Positions 4,806 to 60,256 of a stretch of 64,000 nucleotides of DNA are shown in pieces. The DNA comes from a virus, in the IMG/VR virus record IMGVR_UViG_3300023179_000054, positions 28,408 through 92,407 of that record. One strand, given 5' to 3'. Numbering within the stretch: the first letter of the stretch is position 1; each line of letters starts with the position of its first letter. The notes under the pieces are model-generated. The model searched no databases and had not been told where the DNA came from. It was given only the letters and a program-made list of their open reading frames with translations. The position numbers were made by a program, and so were the translations under genes.

Positions 4806-5033
4806 TCAATCCATATTTCCGAAGTCATTATTCAGGCGAGAAGCAGGAACGGAACCTCCACCACCGCTTGCGGATGATGAAGGACCGGAAGTAGGAAAGT
4901 TATGATGACTGGCATTAAAGGATGTAGAACCTTCACTCCAACCAGGATTTTGCCATGAATAGGCCGGTATATCATGTACCGGTTCTCCACTTAAAGAATG
5001 AAACTGTGCCAGTATAATCAAAGTCTTTATCAT
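4806..5033 (-). CDS. small hypothetical protein, possible signal peptide
   Basis: hydrophobic N-terminus, Ser/Gly-rich tail; ATGA-coupled to the glycosyltransferase. Confidence 0.5.
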   Translation of the reverse strand: MIKTLIILAQFHSLSGEPVHDIPAYSWQNPGWSEGSTSFNASHHNFPTSGPSSSASGGGGSVPASRLNNDFGNMD

Positions 5034-6022
5034 ACTAAATTATTCACAAATTGGTCAGTTGCGGATTCCCATGAAAATTGTTTTGCTCTTGCTACGGCAT
5101 CTTCTCTTTTTAGTTTAGATGCCTTTACAATTGCTTCTTCATAGTGATAACTATCGGTTAGAATACCAGATTTACCATCTTCAATAATATATCGGTTCAC
5201 CTCGTTGTCTAATCCAGCAACAGGTAATCCACATGCCATGGCCTCTAACACAACAAGTCCAAATGTGTCTGTTAGAGAAGGCCAAGCAAACACATCATAT
5301 GCTGGTAAAAGGTCGGCAATCTCTTGTTGTGTTTTACGACCGAGAAAATAAGCATCTGTGTATCTTGCTTTGTATTCATCTAATTGTGGGCCATCACCAA
5401 TAACATATTTACTGATGTTAGGATTGCTTATCTCAAGGTATTCAATTAGATTCTTTTCTGCTGATACCCTACCGACATAAATGGCACGGATAGTACCTGT
5501 GTTGGTCCAAGGTGATGGTTTGAATAGGTCTGTATCAACTCCACGGGACCATATCTTTACGTTCCGTATACCCATTTTAGAACAGTAATCAACCATGGCG
5601 GGGGTAGGTACCATAACACAATCGCTGTTTCTATGGAACCAACGAAAATACCTACCAGTAATTCTTGGTGGTATATAAGCGTGTTCATATAGGTATTCTG
5701 GATATCGAGTATGAAAGGATGTTGTGTAATGTCTTTTATATTTTTTACAATAATATCTTGCGGCAAGGCCTATACTTCCTTCTGTTGCTATGTGTATGTG
5801 TTCGGCATTCTTCACATATTCATCAGCAAGTCCCATAGGCATAATCGGCATATAAATGCCAGTTGATGGTTGTAATGGTACAGTTAGTTTGAAGAGGCCG
5901 GGGTGAACCACCTTGACCTCAAACCCTCGTTTCTCAAGGTGTTTAATAGTTGTCTTTAATGTCGTGACAACTCCGTTTATTTGGGGTTCCCACGCATCTG
6001 TAAAAATAGTAATGTTACTCAT
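5030..6022 (-). CDS. agt: GT4 glycosyltransferase, Agt-like (monoglycosyl/glucuronosyl-diacylglycerol synthase type)
   Basis: TDAWEPQINGVV, HIATEG, HTRYPEY, WSRGVD, VGRVS.EKN and PS.TDTFGLV.LEAMACG motifs; coupled to the plcP-like gene. Confidence 0.8.
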   Translation of the reverse strand: MSNITIFTDAWEPQINGVVTTLKTTIKHLEKRGFEVKVVHPGLFKLTVPLQPSTGIYMPIMPMGLADEYVKNAEHIHIATEGSIGLAARYYCKKYKRHYTTSFHTRYPEYLYEHAYIPPRITGRYFRWFHRNSDCVMVPTPAMVDYCSKMGIRNVKIWSRGVDTDLFKPSPWTNTGTIRAIYVGRVSAEKNLIEYLEISNPNISKYVIGDGPQLDEYKARYTDAYFLGRKTQQEIADLLPAYDVFAWPSLTDTFGLVVLEAMACGLPVAGLDNEVNRYIIEDGKSGILTDSYHYEEAIVKASKLKREDAVARAKQFSWESATDQFVNNLV

Positions 6023-6759
6023 CGTCTTATTATCTCAAACTTTCCATTATGGTGTTCAACAATAGCGGTACAGGATTCTACCCAGTCGCCGCAGTTTAAG
6101 TATTCAATATTATCAAAAGAACATATATTAGCATGATGAATATGGCCGCAAACCACCCCATCGACGCATCTCCTTCTGGCAGCATCAGCAACTACCTTTT
6201 CGTAATCACCGATAAAGTTTACCGCTTCTTTGACACTCGATTTTGCCCATGCTGAGAGGGAAAAACCACGAATGCCTAATATATGGTATATATTCTGCAA
6301 ATACCTATTAAGGTCTATCATCCTATCATACAACCATCCACCTATTAAGGCAAGCCATTTGGCGTTCATCGTAACAAGGTCAAACTGGTCTCCATGAATA
6401 ATAAGGTATTTCTTACCGTTTTCTCCATAGTGTATAGCATCATTCACCAGTTTTATACTACCCATTTCTATTCCATTATACTCTCTAAGGAATTCATCAT
6501 GATTACCTGTAACGTATATAACCGGAATATCTTTCTTAGATTGTTTTAGGAAGAATTGAATAACGTTATTGTGCGCCTGAGGCCAATAGACTTTCTTTCT
6601 CATCATCCATCCGTCTATGATATCTCCAATCAAGTAATATCTGTCGGCTTCGGTTTCTTTGAGGAACTCTAAGAGTTTTTCTGCGTTTGAATATTTGGTG
6701 CCAAGATGAACATCGGATATAAAGATACTTCTATACTTTTTCTTATCTTTACTTTTCAA
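6019..6759 (-). CDS. plcP: PlcP-like phospholipase C (LpxH-superfamily metallophosphoesterase)
   Basis: ISDVHLG, GDIIDGW, WPQ.H, GNHDE (not the GNRD of LpxH), HGDQFD, SAWAK..VK.AVNFI, CGHIH and GDWVESCTA; TTG start with AAGGAG RBS. Confidence 0.82.
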   Translation of the reverse strand: MKSKDKKKYRSIFISDVHLGTKYSNAEKLLEFLKETEADRYYLIGDIIDGWMMRKKVYWPQAHNNVIQFFLKQSKKDIPVIYVTGNHDEFLREYNGIEMGSIKLVNDAIHYGENGKKYLIIHGDQFDLVTMNAKWLALIGGWLYDRMIDLNRYLQNIYHILGIRGFSLSAWAKSSVKEAVNFIGDYEKVVADAARRRCVDGVVCGHIHHANICSFDNIEYLNCGDWVESCTAIVEHHNGKFEIIRR

Positions 6760-6786
6760 GGCCGCTCCTTTGGTTAGAAGGCCTAT

Positions 6787-6793
6787 TATTTAT
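6787..6793 (-). promoter_or_regulatory. T4-type late promoter ATAAATA ahead of plcP-agt
   Basis: same motif class as in front of gp13, 16, 18, 19, 21 and 22. Confidence 0.55.
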
Positions 6794-6814
6794 CGCACCG
6801 CAACATTAACCGTT

Positions 6815-7762
6815 TTATGACGATTTCATACTTTCCATAATATCGTCTAACGTGTATAGAGGTGTATAATCTAATAGTTCTTTTAATTTGGTATTATCAG
6901 CGACCAGATAAGGAACGTCTCCTTTCCTTTTGCCTGTATAAACTATAGTCATTTCACCATTATGAATGATTTGATTTGCCTTGTCAACCACTTCTTTTAC
7001 GGAGTATCCGTTAGATGAACCGATATTGACGGCAAAGTTTGCTTTCTCTTGTTTTTCGAGATAACGATAGGCATGTATATGGGCACGGCAAATATCTACC
7101 ACATGGACATAATCACGAACACAAGTTCCATCATCAGTTTGGTAATCATCACCATATATTGTTGCTGTTTTATTTTTAGCAAGTATAGGAATTAAATGTG
7201 TTTCTGGGTCATGTTCTTCATATAGATTTGCTTTTACATTACGACCACAGGCATTAAAGTATCTAAGTCTTGCCACATTTATATCATCAAGGCCTTCTAA
7301 TATGGTTTCACACATAGCCTTTGATTTACCATAAACTGATGTAGGATTTACTGGTTGAGTTTCAAGTATATTACCACCAAAGATATAATCTCTACTACAA
7401 TCACCATAAACTGCGGCTGTGGAAGAAAAGATAAAGTTCTTTACTCCGTATTTCTTTGCTGCGGAGATTGCTCCAAGTGTTGCCCCGATGTTGTTTCGGT
7501 AATATGAGAATGGGTTTCGTTCACCTTCTTCCACAGAAATGTATGCGGCAAAGTGGAATATGCAGTCGATACGCCCCTTTGTGGAATAAAAGGTATCGCT
7601 GACAAGATCAGCATGGATAAAATCATCATAAAGATGCCTAAGATGCGGTTTAACATCTTTATCTACTCCTATTATATGGCAGTCAGGATAAAATGTGCCA
7701 AGTTCATGACACATATGGCTGCCGATATAACCGTTACAACCTGTGACTACGAATGTTTTCAT
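6815..7762 (-). CDS. galE: UDP-glucose 4-epimerase
   Basis: TGCNGYIGSH, HFAA, FSSTAAVYG, YGKSK, LRYFN and DGTCVRDYVHV. Confidence 0.9.
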   Translation of the reverse strand: MKTFVVTGCNGYIGSHMCHELGTFYPDCHIIGVDKDVKPHLRHLYDDFIHADLVSDTFYSTKGRIDCIFHFAAYISVEEGERNPFSYYRNNIGATLGAISAAKKYGVKNFIFSSTAAVYGDCSRDYIFGGNILETQPVNPTSVYGKSKAMCETILEGLDDINVARLRYFNACGRNVKANLYEEHDPETHLIPILAKNKTATIYGDDYQTDDGTCVRDYVHVVDICRAHIHAYRYLEKQEKANFAVNIGSSNGYSVKEVVDKANQIIHNGEMTIVYTGKRKGDVPYLVADNTKLKELLDYTPLYTLDDIMESMKSS

Positions 7763-9560: not shown

Positions 9561-10530
9561 TCAAAGCATCCCTAATACAAAGACGGAGACTATCATCAAC
9601 CTTCATCTTTGCTTCCCAACCAAGGAGTTCTTTAGCCTTATCAACATTAGGAACACGATAGCGAACATCGTTCTTATATGCTGGTTTATGAGCAAAGGTC
9701 ATAGCAGCATCAAAGGTACAACCAAACTCATTAGCAGCAATCGATCTAATCTTCCTTGCTAACTCAAGCATAGTAATCGGTTCATGATTACCTAGATTAA
9801 ACGCATGACCGTTTGTCTTAGAGGAAAATGAATGTGTAGCAATTGCCTCTGCTACCTCGTCAATCCATGTGAAGCAACGGATTTGTTCACCATCACCTAA
9901 CATAGGAATAACATTAGAACGTTTAACAATAATCTCGTTCATAAAGTCAGCAAAAACATGAGAAACACCTTGTGTACCTTCTGACTTTTCATATGGAGTT
10001 AGAATGTTAAATGGACGCCAAATGGTATAAGCAACACCATATTGCTTCTCAAAAGCAATAGACATCTTTTCACCAACATACTTTGATAAACCATATTCCG
10101 TGTAAGGAGCAATTACAGTATCAACATCATCTTCCTTAACTTCACCTTGGCAGTTCTCATATACCATAGATGATGATGTATAAACAACCTTAGGTACATG
10201 GTTATCAACTGCGGCCTTGAGGACATTATTGTGTAGTGCTAAATCTTCACCAAGGATATCGGCACAATACATATTGAAACCACCAACACCATAAATACGT
10301 GCCGCAGCCTGAATGATTAGGTCTGGTTTAACATCCTTCACAAGAGCATTAACTGATGGACGATCTGTGAGGTCGGCCTTGCGAAACTCATATCCTTGTC
10401 CGGCAATACCAAGACGTTCACCATAACGGCAAAGATTATCCACACCATATACAGCATGGCCATCTCTAAGCAGTTTTGGAATAACTGCCTGCATCAAAGA
10501 ACCTTCGCTTCCGCATACTAATACTTTCAT
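9547..10530 (-). CDS. NAD-dependent nucleotide-sugar epimerase/dehydratase (extended SDR)
   Basis: degenerate GSEGSL nucleotide-binding loop, SSSMVY, YGLSK, RPFN and GDGEQIRCF. Confidence 0.85.
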   Translation of the reverse strand: MKVLVCGSEGSLMQAVIPKLLRDGHAVYGVDNLCRYGERLGIAGQGYEFRKADLTDRPSVNALVKDVKPDLIIQAAARIYGVGGFNMYCADILGEDLALHNNVLKAAVDNHVPKVVYTSSSMVYENCQGEVKEDDVDTVIAPYTEYGLSKYVGEKMSIAFEKQYGVAYTIWRPFNILTPYEKSEGTQGVSHVFADFMNEIIVKRSNVIPMLGDGEQIRCFTWIDEVAEAIATHSFSSKTNGHAFNLGNHEPITMLELARKIRSIAANEFGCTFDAAMTFAHKPAYKNDVRYRVPNVDKAKELLGWEAKMKVDDSLRLCIRDALNGSK

Positions 10531-11762
10531 TTCACATCTCCAACTTTATAAATCCCTGTATTACTTAGTTTGCTTTCTGGGAACATCTTCCAGAGGTCAG
10601 CAACAATACATCCTTCTCTAAACATATCTAATTTACAATAATCAGCAAATACTGTATGTGGTGTCATAACAATAACCGCATCATAGTCCTGAAATGCTGG
10701 TGGGGTTTCTCCAGCAATATAATAAGGGTCAACCATCCATGCTTTTACACCATGCTTCTTACAAACCTTTTTCATTTTAAAGGCGAGAGAGTTGCGAGTA
10801 TCATCACAATCCTTCTTAAATGTGGCACCAAGAATAAGGACTTTCTTTATACTTTTATTAATAACTTTAATACGATTAAAGATATAGTCAGGCATACCTT
10901 CGTTAATAAGAAAGCTAGTGTTAATAAGATCGCCAAAGGGAATGTCAGACAACAAGAAACGGCCGTCTTTGAAGAGGCAAGGACCTCCAACATTAGGTCC
11001 TGGATGAGGCACATCCATTCGTGGATAATCGTAATTACATGCATCGATAACTTTGTCAATATTAATGCCATGTTTTTCTCCAATCATCCAAAACTCATTA
11101 GCAAAGGCAAATGAAACATAACGATACATATTAGTCATTAGTTTACCAATCTCAACCTCTCTTGGTGTAAGATGAAATACTTTATTACTAATGAATGTAT
11201 TAAAGAATAGTGAGGCCTGTAAATAGGAATCATCAGAAAAGGCACCAACTAATTGTGGCAGACTGGAGATTTCTGTAATACTTTTACCTTGAACGACACG
11301 TTCTGGTGCAAATACAAGATGATAATCTTTACCTTCTATCCAACCATGATTATCTTCAATATGGTCTCTAATAACCTCTGTTGTTCCTGGTGATACTGTA
11401 GAACGAAGGACAATTAATTGTCCTTTCTTCATACGAGGAATAAGAGTATCGTCAACAAAATTAAAAAGATCATCCAATCGGGCATTACCTTCTCCATCTA
11501 CTGGCGTGCCAATCATAATGGCAATAACATCAGAGTCCTTAATAGGATCGAATCCAGTAGTGAATATAACTGATTTATTGCCAAGGCACTTATCTAATAG
11601 TCCTTTAGCATCTTCTTCAACATAAGGCACGTTGCCTTCATTTAGTTGTCTTACAATATCTTCATTAACATCAATACCATAAACTGTATGTCCGGCATTC
11701 GCAATAACTAATGAAAGAGGGAATCCAACGTGGCCGCCGGCACCAATAACAGAAACAATCAT
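10527..11762 (-). CDS. nucleotide-sugar 6-dehydrogenase (WecC/WbpA/Ugd family)
   Basis: GGHVG, RSTVSPGT, PERV, K...N..R, GPNVGGPCL (catalytic Cys) and FK..CDD.RNS. Confidence 0.9.
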   Translation of the reverse strand: MIVSVIGAGGHVGFPLSLVIANAGHTVYGIDVNEDIVRQLNEGNVPYVEEDAKGLLDKCLGNKSVIFTTGFDPIKDSDVIAIMIGTPVDGEGNARLDDLFNFVDDTLIPRMKKGQLIVLRSTVSPGTTEVIRDHIEDNHGWIEGKDYHLVFAPERVVQGKSITEISSLPQLVGAFSDDSYLQASLFFNTFISNKVFHLTPREVEIGKLMTNMYRYVSFAFANEFWMIGEKHGINIDKVIDACNYDYPRMDVPHPGPNVGGPCLFKDGRFLLSDIPFGDLINTSFLINEGMPDYIFNRIKVINKSIKKVLILGATFKKDCDDTRNSLAFKMKKVCKKHGVKAWMVDPYYIAGETPPAFQDYDAVIVMTPHTVFADYCKLDMFREGCIVADLWKMFPESKLSNTGIYKVGDVK

Positions 11763-51631: not shown

Positions 51632-51659
51632 TTGTTTTTTCTCCTATTCTTTCTATTTA

Positions 51660-53336
51660 TTAGAATTTGCCGACGATTTCGGAGAAGGCAACTCCGGTGC
51701 GTACCGCAACGAAGTTCAACTGGATAAAGTTGATTGCGCGGGCAGGCTTAATGTAAATGTCTCCGACGAAACGATTTCCGTCGATGACCTCTGGTGTATT
51801 GTTTGTTTCGTCACAGACAACTTTGTATTCATAGATACCACGGCGACCTTTAACGTCACGTAGGAATGGTTCTACGAGGGCAACGAACTGGGCTCTTGTG
51901 AACTCATCGTTGAACTCGAATAGTGAATACTTGGCTGCTCTTGAGATTGACTTCTCAAGGACGATAAACAATCTACGAACGTTAATACGGTCGAAAGCTG
52001 ATGGCTTAGCAGTCATGGTCTTATCACCATAAAGAACTGTGCCTGTACCCATCATGGTTACAACTGGGTTGATTGAGTTCTTATAAAGTGTGTCTCTATC
52101 AGCCTGATTAGGAGACCAAGCAAGTTGAACAACGTTCTTAACAAGACCTCGGTTTAGACCAGCTGGTGACCACCATGGATCACGATTAAGATCGGTTGCC
52201 GCACAGAGACCAGCAATATCACCGTTGAGAGGAACCCAACGATAAAGGTTGTTATACTTGTCGAATTGCTTTTTCCAACCTGAGTCGAGAACAGCATATG
52301 AAGATGAGTTGAAATCATTTCTGTAAGAAACAATATCACCTGCTTCGCTTCCTGAGTTATTAACAACATCGGCCATTAGAGGAGAAATGAATGTAACCAA
52401 ATCTTTTCTATGTTCTGCGATGTTATCAACGATGTATTCGGAAACTGTCTGAGAAGCAGCACCGGTCATCAATAGGGAAACATCAACTGAATCGATATTG
52501 TTAAATAAATCATAAGCAGTTGTTAGATTTCCGTCGGTTGGTGTACCAAACGCACCGTTGGCAAGTGTTAATGTTGAAACGTTTGCTGTAAATGTTGTAT
52601 TCGCAGCGATGCTTCCCCAGTTAGCCTCAAGTTCATTAATGATATAAATGTATTCTGATTTATCTTTAATGACGTTTACGTAGTAGTTTGAAGAACCGTC
52701 ATCGTTCTTAGCGTCAATCGCTTTAGAAACATATGAATATCTTTCAAGAACGGTATTAGGAACGCCAGAAAACTTACCTAAGGTATCAACAACGATAATG
52801 TGCATTTCGTCGTTAGCACCACCTCTTGATGATGTCCAGTTAGATGTGCCTGGAGTACCATTAAAGTTTGGAGCGTATGTCCAAGAAGCAAACGCTACTG
52901 AGTTTGCTGAACCAAAGATGGAAACTTTTAGGCCGTTTCCAAGTTCTGATGGATAACGAGCAGCAACAACACCGTATTCAGAGTTTGCTGAAAGATCGAG
53001 ATATGTATTTTCGTAGTGATTTTCATTTTGAATAACAAGAGGACGGATGCCTGATGTTGCGTTGTTAGCCTTTGTTGTATCACAAGCACGAACTAACTGA
53101 AGGTTCTGTGCGTATGAAAGGAAGTTTGCTGCGGTGAAGAATGATGTAAATGTGTTTTGGCTTGGTTTTCCAAACCAACGAACAAGGTCTACTTCATTTG
53201 AAATTGTCATAATGTGATTAACTGGACCCCAATCAAAGTTGCCGGCAAAACCTCCTGCTGTGGTGGATAGTGATGGTACAATGGTCGTAAGATCGATTTC
53301 AGACCAAGTCACACCAGGGGAAATTTGATATGCCAT
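51660..53336 (-). CDS. gp18: tail sheath protein
   Basis: SPGV...E.DLT, F.WGP, W.SPAG.NRG, FDRINVRRLF and YIKPAR.INFI.L.F. Confidence 0.98.
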   Translation of the reverse strand: MAYQISPGVTWSEIDLTTIVPSLSTTAGGFAGNFDWGPVNHIMTISNEVDLVRWFGKPSQNTFTSFFTAANFLSYAQNLQLVRACDTTKANNATSGIRPLVIQNENHYENTYLDLSANSEYGVVAARYPSELGNGLKVSIFGSANSVAFASWTYAPNFNGTPGTSNWTSSRGGANDEMHIIVVDTLGKFSGVPNTVLERYSYVSKAIDAKNDDGSSNYYVNVIKDKSEYIYIINELEANWGSIAANTTFTANVSTLTLANGAFGTPTDGNLTTAYDLFNNIDSVDVSLLMTGAASQTVSEYIVDNIAEHRKDLVTFISPLMADVVNNSGSEAGDIVSYRNDFNSSSYAVLDSGWKKQFDKYNNLYRWVPLNGDIAGLCAATDLNRDPWWSPAGLNRGLVKNVVQLAWSPNQADRDTLYKNSINPVVTMMGTGTVLYGDKTMTAKPSAFDRINVRRLFIVLEKSISRAAKYSLFEFNDEFTRAQFVALVEPFLRDVKGRRGIYEYKVVCDETNNTPEVIDGNRFVGDIYIKPARAINFIQLNFVAVRTGVAFSEIVGKF

Positions 53337-59251: not shown

Positions 59252-60256
59252 CTACTCTGTTTCTGGCCATTCCGTTATATTTATATCATAGCCATAATCA
59301 TCTGTCGGTTCTGCCGTTATTGGGTCTGGTGTAATCTGAATTGATGCTAACTTTAATGGTGATACATTAAATGAATGTATCTGACAAGTACCATTGGTTG
59401 ATACTGCGTGAACGTAGTTATTAACTTTAAATTGACCTTGAACTGCACCTAATGTTAATCTATCCAAATCAGAATTATAATCGATAATAACACCATATGC
59501 GGTTGCTGTCTTATAACTATCACCTTGATAAACCATGTCGTTTGACTTGAACACACCATTAGCATTTGCCGTATTTATCTTGGTGATGTATGCGGAACTT
59601 AAATGAAGGTCGTTATATACATTTGCGTAAACGGTACGAATAATCTTTGGATAAGAAATCGGGCCATAGTAATACATCTTCATGGTAAAGTTTAGAGTCC
59701 AATTAACATATCTTACCGTATCAAAATCACCCTCATACTGGATATCATTTGACACGTTATTAAGAATGACTGGAACATCTTTAATGAATCCAAGGTCAGG
59801 AATCATATTCGTTGCTACCGTGAAATCTGGATTAAAGAATGGTAAAATCTGTTCCACAATCTGCGTACCGTCATCGATATTTCGAGCATAGATGTTTAAT
59901 GAAAAAGTTATATCGTAAGGAACACCCATATAGCAAGATGAAACATGAGTTGTAGTGTTTGCCTTAGCAGCCTTTAATAATGAGTTTTGTTTTCTTGTAG
60001 CATCATAAGAAACGCCTGTAATCTCAAAACTCATTCTTGGTAAAACTGTCTGTAATTGACGTAGTAAATCCGGGTCGGAGAAAATACGAGTAATCATTTT
60101 CTCTTTTGGAGCATAGATGATAGGCACCAGAAAACGGTTAGTTTCTTTACCAGTCTGGTCGTTCTTTCTAACAATTTTTATATCATCAAAAAGACGTCCA
60201 AAAAGGACAACTGCTTTACGGGTTAGTTGATGATAAAAATGTGAATTACCTAACAT
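59252..60256 (-). CDS. gp15: tail sheath stabilizer / completion protein
   Basis: FYH...RK.V..FG.LF, VP..Y.PKEK, LPRMSFE and QI.EQILPFF.P. Confidence 0.95.
   Translation of the reverse strand: MLGNSHFYHQLTRKAVVLFGRLFDDIKIVRKNDQTGKETNRFLVPIIYAPKEKMITRIFSDPDLLRQLQTVLPRMSFEITGVSYDATRKQNSLLKAAKANTTTHVSSCYMGVPYDITFSLNIYARNIDDGTQIVEQILPFFNPDFTVATNMIPDLGFIKDVPVILNNVSNDIQYEGDFDTVRYVNWTLNFTMKMYYYGPISYPKIIRTVYANVYNDLHLSSAYITKINTANANGVFKSNDMVYQGDSYKTATAYGVIIDYNSDLDRLTLGAVQGQFKVNNYVHAVSTNGTCQIHSFNVSPLKLASIQITPDPITAEPTDDYGYDINITEWPETE

What the first reader, a model, noticed from the sequence alone, without database searches (positions are those of the whole stretch)
5030..6793. Phage-encoded PlcP + Agt pair: a phospholipid-to-glycolipid membrane-remodelling module
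Seen: two translationally coupled genes (ATGA overlap at 6019-6022) behind their own late-type ATAAATA motif. The first has the PlcP-type signature (GNHD rather than the GNRD of LpxH, WPQ, SAWAK..VK.AVNFIG, GDWVESCTA). The second has the DAW.PQ.NGVV / HIATEG / HTR.PEY signature of Agt. Established: in rhizobia, SAR11 and Pseudomonas, PlcP cleaves phospholipid head groups under phosphate starvation and Agt converts the diacylglycerol into glucosyl/glucuronosyl-DAG. Inference: the phage could mine host membrane phosphate for DNA synthesis, or alter the envelope late in infection (superinfection exclusion, lysis timing). The neighbouring GalE and sugar dehydrogenase could supply donors. I do not know this pair as an established phage auxiliary metabolic module.
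Basis: partly seen in the sequence, partly recalled or inferred. Interest (0 to 1): 0.88.

Follow-up and report, generated by a model that had tools for sequence, protein, structure and literature searches.

The report
Phage-borne PlcP-Agt membrane lipid-swap genes
An uncultured T4-like freshwater phage carries its own intact copies of the two bacterial enzymes that replace phosphate-containing membrane lipids with sugar lipids, so it probably remodels its host's membranes and may free phosphorus for making phage DNA; databases mislabel the first enzyme as the lipid A enzyme LpxH.

Summary
On the minus strand, a 246-aa metallophosphoesterase (6019-6759) and a 330-aa GT4 glycosyltransferase (5030-6022) overlap by ATGA. 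They sit behind a GATAAATA late-type motif and a strong ribosome-binding site.

The first protein is not LpxH. It scores 44-50 bits against LpxH models with cut-offs of 134-190, has GNHD rather than GNRD, and falls in the PlcP-like family, split from true LpxH with full support. It is 50-55% identical to PlcP-type proteins of Methylocystis, Rhizobium and Pseudomonas.

The second protein keeps every residue shown by mutagenesis to matter in the SAR11 Agt enzyme GTcp. In five bacterial genomes its best match is always the gene next to plcP.

The pair is conserved as a unit in 48 of 51 related viral contigs, whatever the flanking genes. It is under strong purifying selection (dN/dS 0.07 and 0.17) and has phage-like GC content (37-39% against 60-63% in bacteria).

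Close relatives carry pmoC, sometimes right after agt, or phoH directly before plcP. This points to methanotroph hosts.

Enzyme activity, expression and the benefit to the phage are untested. I found no paper reporting this. This scan had already noted the same cassette on other phage contigs.

The parts
6806..6823 (-). Conserved upstream element TCGTCATAAAACGGTTAA, overlapping the GalE stop codon. It resembles a Pho box only weakly in this window.
   Evidence: It scores 9 of 14 against CTGTCAT-N4-CTGTCAT, which is within the null range (26% of random 120-nt pieces reach 9). The nearest relatives L004/L025 have CTGTCATAAAACGGTTAA, 11 of 14 (0.65% of null pieces). The block is conserved at -61 to -64 behind different upstream genes.
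6787..6793 (-). T4-type late-promoter-like motif (G)ATAAATA, 27 nt upstream of the plcP start
   Evidence: The same motif lies at -31 to -35 in 27 of 47 related viral loci, often as a perfect TATAAATA. No sigma-70-like promoter was found in this intergenic gap.
6765..6770 (-). Shine-Dalgarno AAGGAG, 5 nt before the TTG start
   Evidence: The leader CCTTCTAACCAAAGGAGCGG..TTG is conserved in many related loci.
6019..6759 (-). plcP-like gene: 246-aa Mn-type metallophosphoesterase with an LpxH-like helical cap; predicted phospholipase C acting on glycerophospholipids
6019..6022 (-). ATGA stop/start overlap (translational coupling of plcP and agt)
   Evidence: The same 4-nt overlap occurs in 31 of 47 related viral loci, and a 7-nt overlap in 8.
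5030..6022 (-). agt-like gene: 330-aa GT4 (GT-B) glycosyltransferase; predicted UDP-sugar:diacylglycerol glycosyltransferase
4806..5033 (-). 75-aa ORF (P0405), ATGA-coupled to agt, with a hydrophobic N-terminus and a Gly/Ser-rich tail; unknown function, possibly a third gene of the unit
   Evidence: It has 61-70% homologues directly after agt in L026 and L044-L046 only. A strong sigma-70-like promoter at 4725-4697 suggests that a new unit starts after it.
6815..7762 (-). GalE (UDP-glucose 4-epimerase). It is the upstream neighbour and last gene of the glycan cluster, not part of the conserved cassette.
   Evidence: TIGR01179 268 bits against a cut-off of 262. It lies upstream of plcP only in L026 and L044-L046.

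Best explanation
The two genes are a phage-borne copy of the bacterial PlcP-Agt lipid-renovation pathway.

They are transcribed from their own late-type promoter and translated as a coupled pair. PlcP, a Mn-type metallophosphoesterase with a lipid-holding cap like that of LpxH, cuts the phosphorylated head group off host glycerophospholipids and leaves diacylglycerol in the membrane. Agt, a retaining GT4 enzyme, then puts glucose, glucuronic acid or galactose from a UDP-sugar onto the diacylglycerol. The bilayer stays intact but becomes phosphorus-free glycolipid.

The released phospho-head groups enter the host pool. Their most likely use is as phosphorus for phage DNA (about 3.3 x 10^5 P atoms per 165-kb genome) in a phosphorus-poor lake.

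Shown here: gene anatomy, family membership, conservation as a unit in phages, and purifying selection. Inferred: both enzyme activities, the timing, and the benefit.

My odds: chemistry as described about 0.8; phosphorus supply as the main benefit about 0.45.
For: PlcP membership:
- Metallophos domain. LpxH models reach only 45-50 bits against cut-offs of 134 and 190.
- Three Pseudomonas and one Chromatiaceae genome each hold one true LpxH (289-345 bits) plus one paralogue at 39-43 bits. That paralogue is the locus the phage protein finds. The phage protein itself scores 44 bits.
- In the tree, LpxH is split from all PlcP-like rows with 100% support, and the phage clade (97%) lies inside the PlcP-like family.
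- It is 48-55% identical to homologues in Methylocystis, Beijerinckiaceae, Rhizobium, Mesorhizobium, Bradyrhizobium and Pseudomonas. Validated PlcPs share only 46-51% with each other (PMC8528852, PMC9239053).
- All metal-binding motifs are invariant: DxH, GD, GNHD, H, GHxH.
- The AF2 model (pLDDT 88) has a helical cap, and its top 24 PDB matches are all LpxH.

Link to the known system:
- In 50 of 80 bacterial loci an Agt homologue (31-41% identical) follows directly downstream. This is the 'type 2' layout of PMC4796936.
- 33 of 72 bacterial loci have a Pho box matching at least 11 of 14 positions upstream, against 0 of 144 control pieces.

Agt membership:
- In five genomes the best match is always the gene adjacent to plcP.
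- The GTcp residues proven by mutagenesis (PMC8231724) are all present: G17, G82, G85, H104, R160, R185, K190, D252, T253, F254, G255, E260, W318. So are the motifs GRVSAEKN and WPSLTDTFG. These residues are invariant or nearly so in 46 viral and 50 bacterial sequences.
- The phage clade nests among the plcP-linked Agts.

Function in phages:
- 48 of 51 viral loci keep plcP followed by agt although the flanks differ.
- Median dN/dS is 0.07 for plcP and 0.17 for agt.
- GC content is 37-39%, the same as the phage, against 60-63% for bacterial plcP.

Phosphorus and membrane context:
- phoH lies directly upstream of plcP in G007 and G008.
- A solo PlcP lies next to pstS in Pelagibacter phage Mosig.
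- pmoC is present in 8 of 15 contigs that carry the pair, and lies 0.3-0.9 kb after agt in L005, L007, L029 and L042.
- In M. trichosporium the plcP-agt pathway makes GlcA-DAG and is needed for membrane packing and methane oxidation at low phosphate (PMC9239053).
Against: - No activity, substrate or expression data exist for any phage copy.
- The validated reference proteins themselves (SMc00171, PA3219, MED193_17359, PB7211_983, Atu2297, PA3218, GTcp) could not be fetched. Membership rests on orthologues from the same genera, on synteny, and on residues named in papers.
- The phage PlcP clade is not nested in the clade holding Rhizobium, Pseudomonas and Methylocystis. It sits in a weakly supported (82%) sister group with Mosig and unnamed metagenome proteins.
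- The phage Agt clade sits on a long stem (2.06 changes per site), so its donor or acceptor could have shifted.
- A late promoter fits phosphorus supply for replication less well than an early one would.
- The Pho-box-like element in this window is not significant (9 of 14).
- PlcP releases phospho-head groups, not phosphate, and no phage phosphatase was identified.
- This contig is only 54% complete. No pmoC or phoH was found in it, so host and context are borrowed from relatives.
Confidence: 0.6

Rival explanations
1. The chemistry is the same (phospholipid to diacylglycerol to glycolipid), but the benefit is not phosphorus. The phage changes or maintains host membranes late in infection. 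It might keep the intracytoplasmic membranes that hold methane monooxygenase working, together with phage PmoC. Or it might alter the envelope to exclude other phages or to time lysis.
For: - The promoter is of the late type.
- plcP-agt lies 0.3-0.9 kb from pmoC, followed by Hsp20 and an M15 peptidase, in L005, L007, L029 and L042.
- The OB3b plcP-agt mutant shows defective intracytoplasmic membrane packing and lower methane oxidation at low phosphate (PMC9239053).
- Glycolipid-remodelled cells differ in phage adsorption and antibiotic sensitivity (PMC9804370, PMC8528852).
- No significant Pho box is present in this window.
Against: - phoH is directly upstream in another phage lineage, and pstS lies next to the Mosig homologue. 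Both point to phosphorus stress.
- The window's own contig shows no pmoC.
- The two benefits do not exclude each other.
Confidence: 0.27
2. The pair belongs to the adjacent phage glycan cluster. PlcP supplies diacylglycerol and Agt makes a glycolipid primer, on which the neighbouring glycosyltransferases (GT4, GT10, GT2) and tailoring enzymes build a lipid-anchored surface glycan.
For: - In this window the pair directly follows a cluster of about ten sugar genes on the same strand, ending in GalE.
- The same linkage is seen in L026 and L044-L046.
Against: - In about 40 of the other viral loci the pair occurs without the cluster.
- The pair carries its own promoter-leader block.
- No flippase or polymerase turned up among the ten neighbouring ORFs scanned against Pfam.
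Confidence: 0.06
3. Take the database labels at face value: an LpxH lipid A enzyme plus a cell-wall or LPS glycosyltransferase, used to modify the host's lipopolysaccharide.
For: - Sources name the homologues 'UDP-2,3-diacylglucosamine pyrophosphatase LpxH' and 'glycosyltransferase involved in cell wall biosynthesis'.
- Viromics surveys list viral lpxH under LPS biosynthesis (PMC10653327, PMC9611531).
- LpxH is the nearest solved fold.
Against: - LpxH model scores are far below their cut-offs.
- The motif is GNHD, where the LpxH chains in the alignment have GNRD.
- The paralogue split is clean within single genomes, and the tree agrees.
- The bacterial homologues carry Pho boxes and are followed by agt, not by lipid A genes.
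Confidence: 0.04
4. The genes are passengers recently picked up from a host, or the contig is a host-phage chimera, and they have no role in infection.
For: They are host-like genes located in a variable region of the phage genome.
Against: - GC content is fully phage-like.
- dN/dS is 0.07-0.17 across dozens of phage copies.
- The pair is present in phage lineages whose capsid proteins are only 67% identical to the window's, and in 98-99% complete genomes.
- The phage clades are monophyletic and sit on long stems.
Confidence: 0.03

Closest known systems
Bacterial plcP-agt lipid-renovation operon: the 'type 2' layout of Sebastian et al. (PMC4796936), validated in M. trichosporium OB3b (PMC9239053), Pelagibacter HTCC7211, P. 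aeruginosa PA3219/PA3218 (PMC8528852) and B. cenocepacia BCAL2364/2365 (PMC13691135)
   Same: - Gene order is the same, with plcP directly followed by agt.
- PlcP is 48-55% identical and Agt 31-41% identical to the bacterial loci.
- All catalytic, UDP-sugar-binding and DAG-binding residues are conserved.
- The cap-bearing metallophosphoesterase fold is LpxH-like.
   Different: - It is encoded by a lytic T4-like phage and has phage GC content.
- It is driven by a T4-type late motif rather than a clear Pho box.
- The two genes overlap by 4 nt, whereas bacterial loci usually leave roughly 60-120 nt between the aligned regions.
- There is no dagK.
- Both proteins form their own viral clades.
LpxH (UDP-2,3-diacylglucosamine pyrophosphatase, lipid A pathway)
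   Same: Same superfamily and overall fold, including the helical lipid-binding insertion. It is the nearest solved structure.
   Different: - Only about 20% identical.
- Scores lie below the family cut-offs.
- The motif is GNHD, not GNRD.
- It is a separate paralogue within single genomes and a separate clade in the tree.
Phage phosphate-stress auxiliary genes (phoH, pstS, phoA of cyanophages and pelagiphages)
   Same: They are host-derived genes tied to phosphorus limitation and carried by T4-like aquatic phages. phoH directly precedes plcP in G007 and G008, and pstS is the neighbour of the Mosig PlcP homologue.
   Different: Those genes act on uptake or have unknown roles. This pair would tap an internal phosphorus store (membrane lipid) and replace it.
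pmoC-phages of freshwater methanotrophs (Chen et al. 2020, PMC7674155)
   Same: - The window's sibling genome G006 (capsid protein 91% identical, 165 kb) and 7 other contigs carrying the pair also carry pmoC.
- The G006 PmoC is 81% identical to a Methylocystis PmoC.
   Different: - That paper, and the parts of its supplements that are held, never mention PlcP, LpxH or lipid genes.
- No pmoC was found in the window's own contig, which is 54% complete.

Membership tests
PlcP (phospholipase C-type metallophosphoesterase of lipid remodelling) | Calcineurin-like metallophosphoesterase with a complete set of metal-binding motifs (DxH, GD, GNH[D/E], H, GHxH) | tested here: met
   PF00149 at 1e-12. 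D16, H18, D46, N86, H87, H122, H206 and H208 are invariant in a 38-sequence family alignment.
PlcP (phospholipase C-type metallophosphoesterase of lipid remodelling) | A paralogue distinct from LpxH, which published PlcP trees use as the outgroup (PMC9239053) | tested here: met
   TIGR01854 scores 44-45 bits against a cut-off of 190. Within single genomes, LpxH scores 289-345 bits and the PlcP-like paralogue 39-43 bits. The split has 100% support in the tree.
PlcP (phospholipase C-type metallophosphoesterase of lipid remodelling) | Strong similarity to validated PlcPs. Sebastian et al. used BLASTP E < 1e-40 to MED193 PlcP; validated members share 46-51% identity. | tested here: inconclusive
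   The protein is 48-55% identical (E 1e-83 to 1e-92) to homologues in Methylocystis, Rhizobium, Mesorhizobium and Pseudomonas. The validated proteins themselves could not be fetched. The phage clade sits in a sister group to those genera.
PlcP (phospholipase C-type metallophosphoesterase of lipid remodelling) | Genomic linkage to a gene for phosphorus-free lipid synthesis (agt directly downstream, the type 2 layout) | tested here: met
   The window has the ATGA overlap. The linkage holds in 48 of 51 viral loci and 50 of 80 bacterial loci.
PlcP (phospholipase C-type metallophosphoesterase of lipid remodelling) | Pho-box or phosphate-starvation control | tested here: not met
   The window's best site scores 9 of 14, within the null range. 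L004/L025 reach 11 of 14. Bacterial homologues reach at least 11 of 14 in 33 of 72 loci against 0 of 144 controls. The phage copy has a late-type promoter motif instead. This feature belongs to the bacterial system, not to the enzyme.
PlcP (phospholipase C-type metallophosphoesterase of lipid remodelling) | Mn2+-dependent release of diacylglycerol from PC, PE or PG | not testable with these tools
   This needs an enzyme assay or lipidomics. The paper with PlcP mutagenesis data (PMC6052262) is not held.
Agt / GTcp group of GT4 diacylglycerol glycosyltransferases | GT4 GT-B architecture of about 330 aa | tested here: met
   PF13439 plus PF00534 match. The protein is 330 aa; GTcp is 334 aa (PMC8231724).
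Agt / GTcp group of GT4 diacylglycerol glycosyltransferases | Catalytic dyad His104-Asp256 (Asp where other GT4 enzymes have Glu) and the UDP-sugar motifs GRVAXEKN and FPSXTDTFG | tested here: met
   H104, D252, GRVSAEKN (184-191) and WPSLTDTFG (247-255) are present. H, D, R, K, T, G and E are invariant in 46 viral and 50 bacterial sequences. Residues were matched by motif and position, not by direct alignment to GTcp.
Agt / GTcp group of GT4 diacylglycerol glycosyltransferases | Diacylglycerol-binding residues His104, Arg163 and Trp320, strictly conserved in the group | tested here: met
   H104, R160 and W318 are conserved in all 46 viral copies. R is K in 2 of the 50 bacterial copies.
Agt / GTcp group of GT4 diacylglycerol glycosyltransferases | Orthology with the plcP-linked gene rather than with other GT4 paralogues | tested here: met
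   The best match in each of 5 genomes is the gene next to plcP (176-241 bits). In the two Pseudomonas genomes the next paralogue scores 102-110 bits. The tree agrees.
Agt / GTcp group of GT4 diacylglycerol glycosyltransferases | Transfer of Glc, GlcA or Gal from a UDP-sugar to diacylglycerol | not testable with these tools
   This needs heterologous expression and lipid mass spectrometry. The long stem of the phage clade leaves a change of specificity possible.
LpxH | Score above the curated cut-off of the equivalog models TIGR01854 and NF003743 | tested here: not met
   45.4 bits against 190.35, and 50.2 bits against 134.
LpxH | GNRD motif | tested here: not met
   P0001 has GNHD where the best-matching solved LpxH chains have GNRD in the alignment.

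The most novel reading that the evidence does not exclude
The cassette is part of a phage 'membrane island' in viruses of methane-oxidising bacteria. During infection the phage converts the host's very large intracytoplasmic phospholipid store into glycolipid. This frees phosphorus for virion DNA, while phage PmoC (and Hsp20) keep the methane-oxidising membranes running. If so, viral infection under phosphorus limitation would change both the lipid phosphorus budget and methane oxidation in lakes. It would be the first phage auxiliary pathway that mines and replaces host membrane lipid.
Probability: 0.3. Interest if true: 0.82.

Novelty: new member of a known kind. Interest (0 to 1): 0.64.

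Why it matters
Phage auxiliary genes for phosphorus stress known so far act on uptake or regulation (pstS, phoA, phoH). A phage-borne PlcP-Agt pair would add a new route, in which the virus strips phosphorus from host membrane lipids and backfills the membrane with sugar lipids.

From my own knowledge, not tested here: a bacterial cell holds roughly 10^7 phospholipid molecules. That matches the phosphorus in several tens of 165-kb genomes, and methanotrophs with stacked internal membranes hold more.

The link to pmoC-phages ties this to methane cycling in lakes.

There is also a practical point. Viral 'lpxH' entries counted in virome surveys as LPS-biosynthesis genes are probably misassigned PlcPs. 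Any test is straightforward, because E. coli lacks both enzymes and reference mutants exist.

Tried and rejected
- **Isolate phage search.** Megablast of 8 kb against 50,697 phage records gave no match. No isolate phage holds the pair. Only solo PlcP homologues turned up, in Pelagibacter phage Mosig and Synechococcus phage S-SRM01, and the best Agt match among isolates is 27% identical.
- **Expression.** No RNA holder was listed for the stretch. Laying four runs gave only relatives below 95% identity, in two libraries that may be DNA, and nothing in two true metatranscriptomes. This gives no evidence either way.
- The contexts of the unnamed nearest PlcP relatives (P0286, P0337, P0295) could therefore not be seen. 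The listing of cluster members gave them no organism names.
- **Pho box in the window.** The best site scores 9 of 14, which is not significant.
- **Host markers.** psbA, ribosomal protein S21 and pstS are absent from this contig and from four relatives. The phage is therefore neither a cyanophage nor a typical pelagimyophage.
- **Dehydrogenase as UDP-GlcA supplier.** This is not supported. The dehydrogenase scores better as UDP-ManNAc dehydrogenase.
- **PlcP mutagenesis paper.** PMC6052262 is not held, so PlcP residues were judged only against the canonical metallophosphoesterase motifs.
- **Literature.** No paper combining PlcP with phage or viral terms reports a virus-encoded PlcP. The pelagimyophage, pmoC-phage and amoC-phage papers do not mention it.
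- **Promoter and terminator scan.** Results were no better than shuffled sequence.
- **Cassette exchange between phage lineages.** PlcP is 81-87% identical where the capsid protein is 67% identical, but Agt is only 67-69% identical. The idea is not pressed.
Full report
**What is there**

The window is part of a 92.4-kb IMG/VR virus contig, about 54% complete. All genes lie on the minus strand. T4-type capsid, portal, sheath, terminase and baseplate genes are present.

Two ORFs match the finding:
- P0001, 6019-6759, 246 aa, with a TTG start preceded by AAGGAG and a 5-nt spacer.
- P0002, 5030-6022, 330 aa.

Stop and start overlap as ATGA at 6019-6022. A third ORF of 75 aa (4806-5033) is coupled to agt in the same ATGA fashion.

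ATAAATA lies 27 nt upstream of the TTG, in the context GATAAATA. The heptamer is depleted in the window (12 copies against 31 +/- 5 expected). Three of the six coding-strand copies lie 22-30 nt before a gene start: plcP, the gene after the sheath gene, and a fibre gene.

**The first gene is PlcP-like, not LpxH**

- Pfam finds a metallophosphoesterase.
- The two LpxH equivalog models score 45 and 50 bits against cut-offs of 190 and 134.
- The best-matching solved LpxH chains align at E about 1e-7 and show GNRD where P0001 has GNHD.
- Three Pseudomonas and one Chromatiaceae genome each hold one true LpxH (289-345 bits) and one paralogue (39-43 bits). That paralogue is exactly the locus found with the phage protein, and the phage protein scores 44 bits.
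- In a maximum-likelihood tree, LpxH is separated from all PlcP-like rows with 100% support. The phage sequences form a 97% clade inside the PlcP-like family.
- The closest named bacterial homologues are 48-55% identical. They come from Beijerinckiaceae, Methylocystis, Mesorhizobium, Rhizobium, Bradyrhizobium and Pseudomonas. Validated PlcPs are no closer than 46-51% to one another (PMC8528852, PMC9239053).
- Of 72 bacterial loci, 33 have a Pho box matching at least 11 of 14 positions within 250 nt upstream. None of 144 control pieces does. This is independent evidence that the family the phage protein belongs to is a phosphate-starvation family.
- An AlphaFold model (pLDDT 88) shows the phosphoesterase core with a helical insertion at residues 128-196. 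Its top 24 PDB matches are all LpxH, about four orders of magnitude in E-value ahead of the next fold. This fits a lipid substrate.

**The second gene is Agt-like**

- It has GT4 domains.
- In 50 of 80 bacterial loci a full-length homologue (31-41% identical) follows plcP directly. This is the 'type 2' arrangement of Sebastian et al. (PMC4796936), also seen in type II methanotrophs (PMC9239053).
- In five bacterial genomes the best match to P0002 is always the gene adjacent to plcP.
- The residues that mutagenesis showed to be essential in the SAR11 enzyme GTcp (PMC8231724) are all present at nearly the same numbering. These are Gly16/82/85, the His104-Asp256 dyad, Arg190, Lys195, Thr257, Phe258, Gly259, Glu264, and the DAG-binding Arg163 and Trp320, together with the motifs GRVAXEKN and FPSXTDTFG. 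They are conserved in 46 viral and 50 bacterial sequences.
- The phage Agts form a 100% clade among the plcP-linked Agts, on a long stem.

**It is a real, selected phage module**

- A scan of IMG/VR returned 51 viral loci with a PlcP homologue (52-88% identical). In 48 of them the Agt homologue follows on the same strand.
- The ATGA overlap recurs in 31 of 47 loci and a 7-nt overlap in 8.
- Flanking genes differ. The sugar cluster upstream in this window is present only in L026 and L044-L046.
- The promoter-leader block travels with the pair. It carries (T)ATAAATA at -31 to -35 in 27 of 47 loci.
- Median pairwise dN/dS is 0.07 for plcP and 0.17 for agt.
- The pair has 37-39% GC, like the window (38%). 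Bacterial plcP genes have 60-63%.
- The pair occurs in genomes estimated 98-99% complete (G006 165 kb, G007 162 kb). It also occurs in lineages whose capsid proteins are only 67% identical to the window's.
- A host chimera or a recent passenger is therefore excluded.

**Host and context**

- The capsid protein is closest to Pelagibacter phage Mosig (66%), Methylophilales phage Melnitz (64%) and cyanomyophages (62%).
- psbA, S21 and pstS are absent.
Eight of 15 contigs carrying the pair have it, including both near-complete genomes and G006, whose capsid protein is 91% identical to the window's.
- The G006 PmoC is 81% identical to a Methylocystis PmoC.
- In L005, L007, L029 and L042 the order on one strand is plcP, agt, one to three small ORFs, pmoC. 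In L005 and L029, where the following ORFs were scanned, Hsp20 and an M15/VanY-type peptidase come next.
- These are evidently the pmoC-phages of Chen et al. (PMC7674155). That paper's text and held supplements do not mention these genes.
- In the G007/G008 lineage phoH lies directly upstream of plcP.
- The window's own contig shows neither pmoC nor phoH, but it is only half complete.

**Mechanism**

The best reading has five steps:
1. Late transcription from the cassette's own promoter.
2. Coupled translation of the two genes.
3. PlcP cleaves the head group from host glycerophospholipids, leaving diacylglycerol.
4. Agt glycosylates the diacylglycerol with a UDP-sugar.
5. The net effect is phosphorus-free glycolipid in place of phospholipid, with phospho-head groups released into the cytoplasm.

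The first two steps rest on sequence features. The enzyme steps are inferred from family membership. The benefit is inferred from context: phosphorus for DNA, or upkeep of methane-oxidising membranes, or both.

The weak points are these:
- Late timing fits phosphorus supply for replication less well than early timing would.
- This window has no significant Pho box (9 of 14).
- No phage phosphatase was identified.
- The Agt clade sits on a long stem.
- I could not fetch the validated reference proteins. The link to them runs through orthologues from the same genera, synteny, and residues named in papers.

**Novelty**

Searches for PlcP together with phage or viral terms found no report of a virus-encoded PlcP. 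Isolate records and virome surveys label such genes LpxH or LPS biosynthesis. The pathway itself is well known in bacteria, so I class this as a new member of a known kind (a host-derived auxiliary pathway). It has a notable context in pmoC-phages. This scan had already reported the same cassette on other phage contigs. My tests agree with those reports, except that the Pho-box reading does not hold for this window.

Noticed in passing
L005:3998-8676; L029:3998-7964 (also L007, L042): In related phage contigs plcP-agt is followed on the same strand, after one to three small ORFs, by pmoC (362 bits). In L005 and L029 an Hsp20 gene and an M15/VanY-type peptidase come next. L005 also has a 552-aa acyl-CoA dehydrogenase 1.4 kb upstream. 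Together these form an island of host-like membrane and stress genes.
   Followed up: partly
G007:C1:45603-46208 and G008:C1:23914-24519 (loci L020, L033): In a second T4-like lineage (capsid protein 67% identical to the window's) phoH ends about 50 nt before plcP, giving a phoH-plcP-agt array.
   Followed up: partly
L044:4732-5436; L047:4735-5454: About 700 nt are inserted between plcP and agt in two related loci, breaking the overlap. Earlier notes of the scan call this an HNH homing endonuclease. I did not check its identity.
   Followed up: no
window 4806-5033 (-): A 75-aa ORF is ATGA-coupled to agt. It has a hydrophobic N-terminus and a Gly/Ser-rich tail and matches no family. Homologues lie directly after agt only in L026 and L044-L046, and upstream of plcP in L005-L008.
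   Followed up: partly
L001 (MT647606.1 94129-94866) and L002 (MW015081.1 210536-211240): Pelagibacter phage Mosig has a solo PlcP-like gene (43% identical, annotated as LpxH) next to a divergently oriented pstS-like phosphate-binding gene. Freshwater Synechococcus phage S-SRM01 has a solo copy (37% identical) among photosynthesis genes. Neither has an Agt gene.
   Followed up: partly
window 6794-6823 (-) and the same place in L004, L026-L029, L044, L048, L050: A roughly 20-nt block, (C)TGTCATAAA(A/T)CGGTTAATGT, is conserved 61-64 nt upstream of plcP behind different upstream genes. It is Pho-box-like at 11 of 14 in L004/L025, but only 9 of 14 here. Its function is unknown.
   Followed up: partly
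window 51654-51660 and 59278-59284 (-): Besides the plcP copy, two of the six coding-strand ATAAATA copies lie 22 and 30 nt before the starts of the gene after the sheath gene (51631) and a fibre/baseplate gene (59247). Overall the motif is depleted to 12 copies against 31 expected. This is consistent with a real late-promoter signal.
   Followed up: partly
window 10527-11762 (-): The nucleotide-sugar dehydrogenase of the glycan cluster scores higher against UDP-ManNAc dehydrogenase models (218 bits) than against UDP-glucose 6-dehydrogenase models (119 bits). Neither score reaches its cut-off.
   Followed up: yes
L047 (contig 95 kb, estimated 27% complete) and protein hits P0174, P0209 (contigs of 347-352 kb): The cassette, or at least agt, also occurs on contigs that imply phage genomes of about 350 kb, so it is not confined to the 160-kb lineage.
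   Followed up: no
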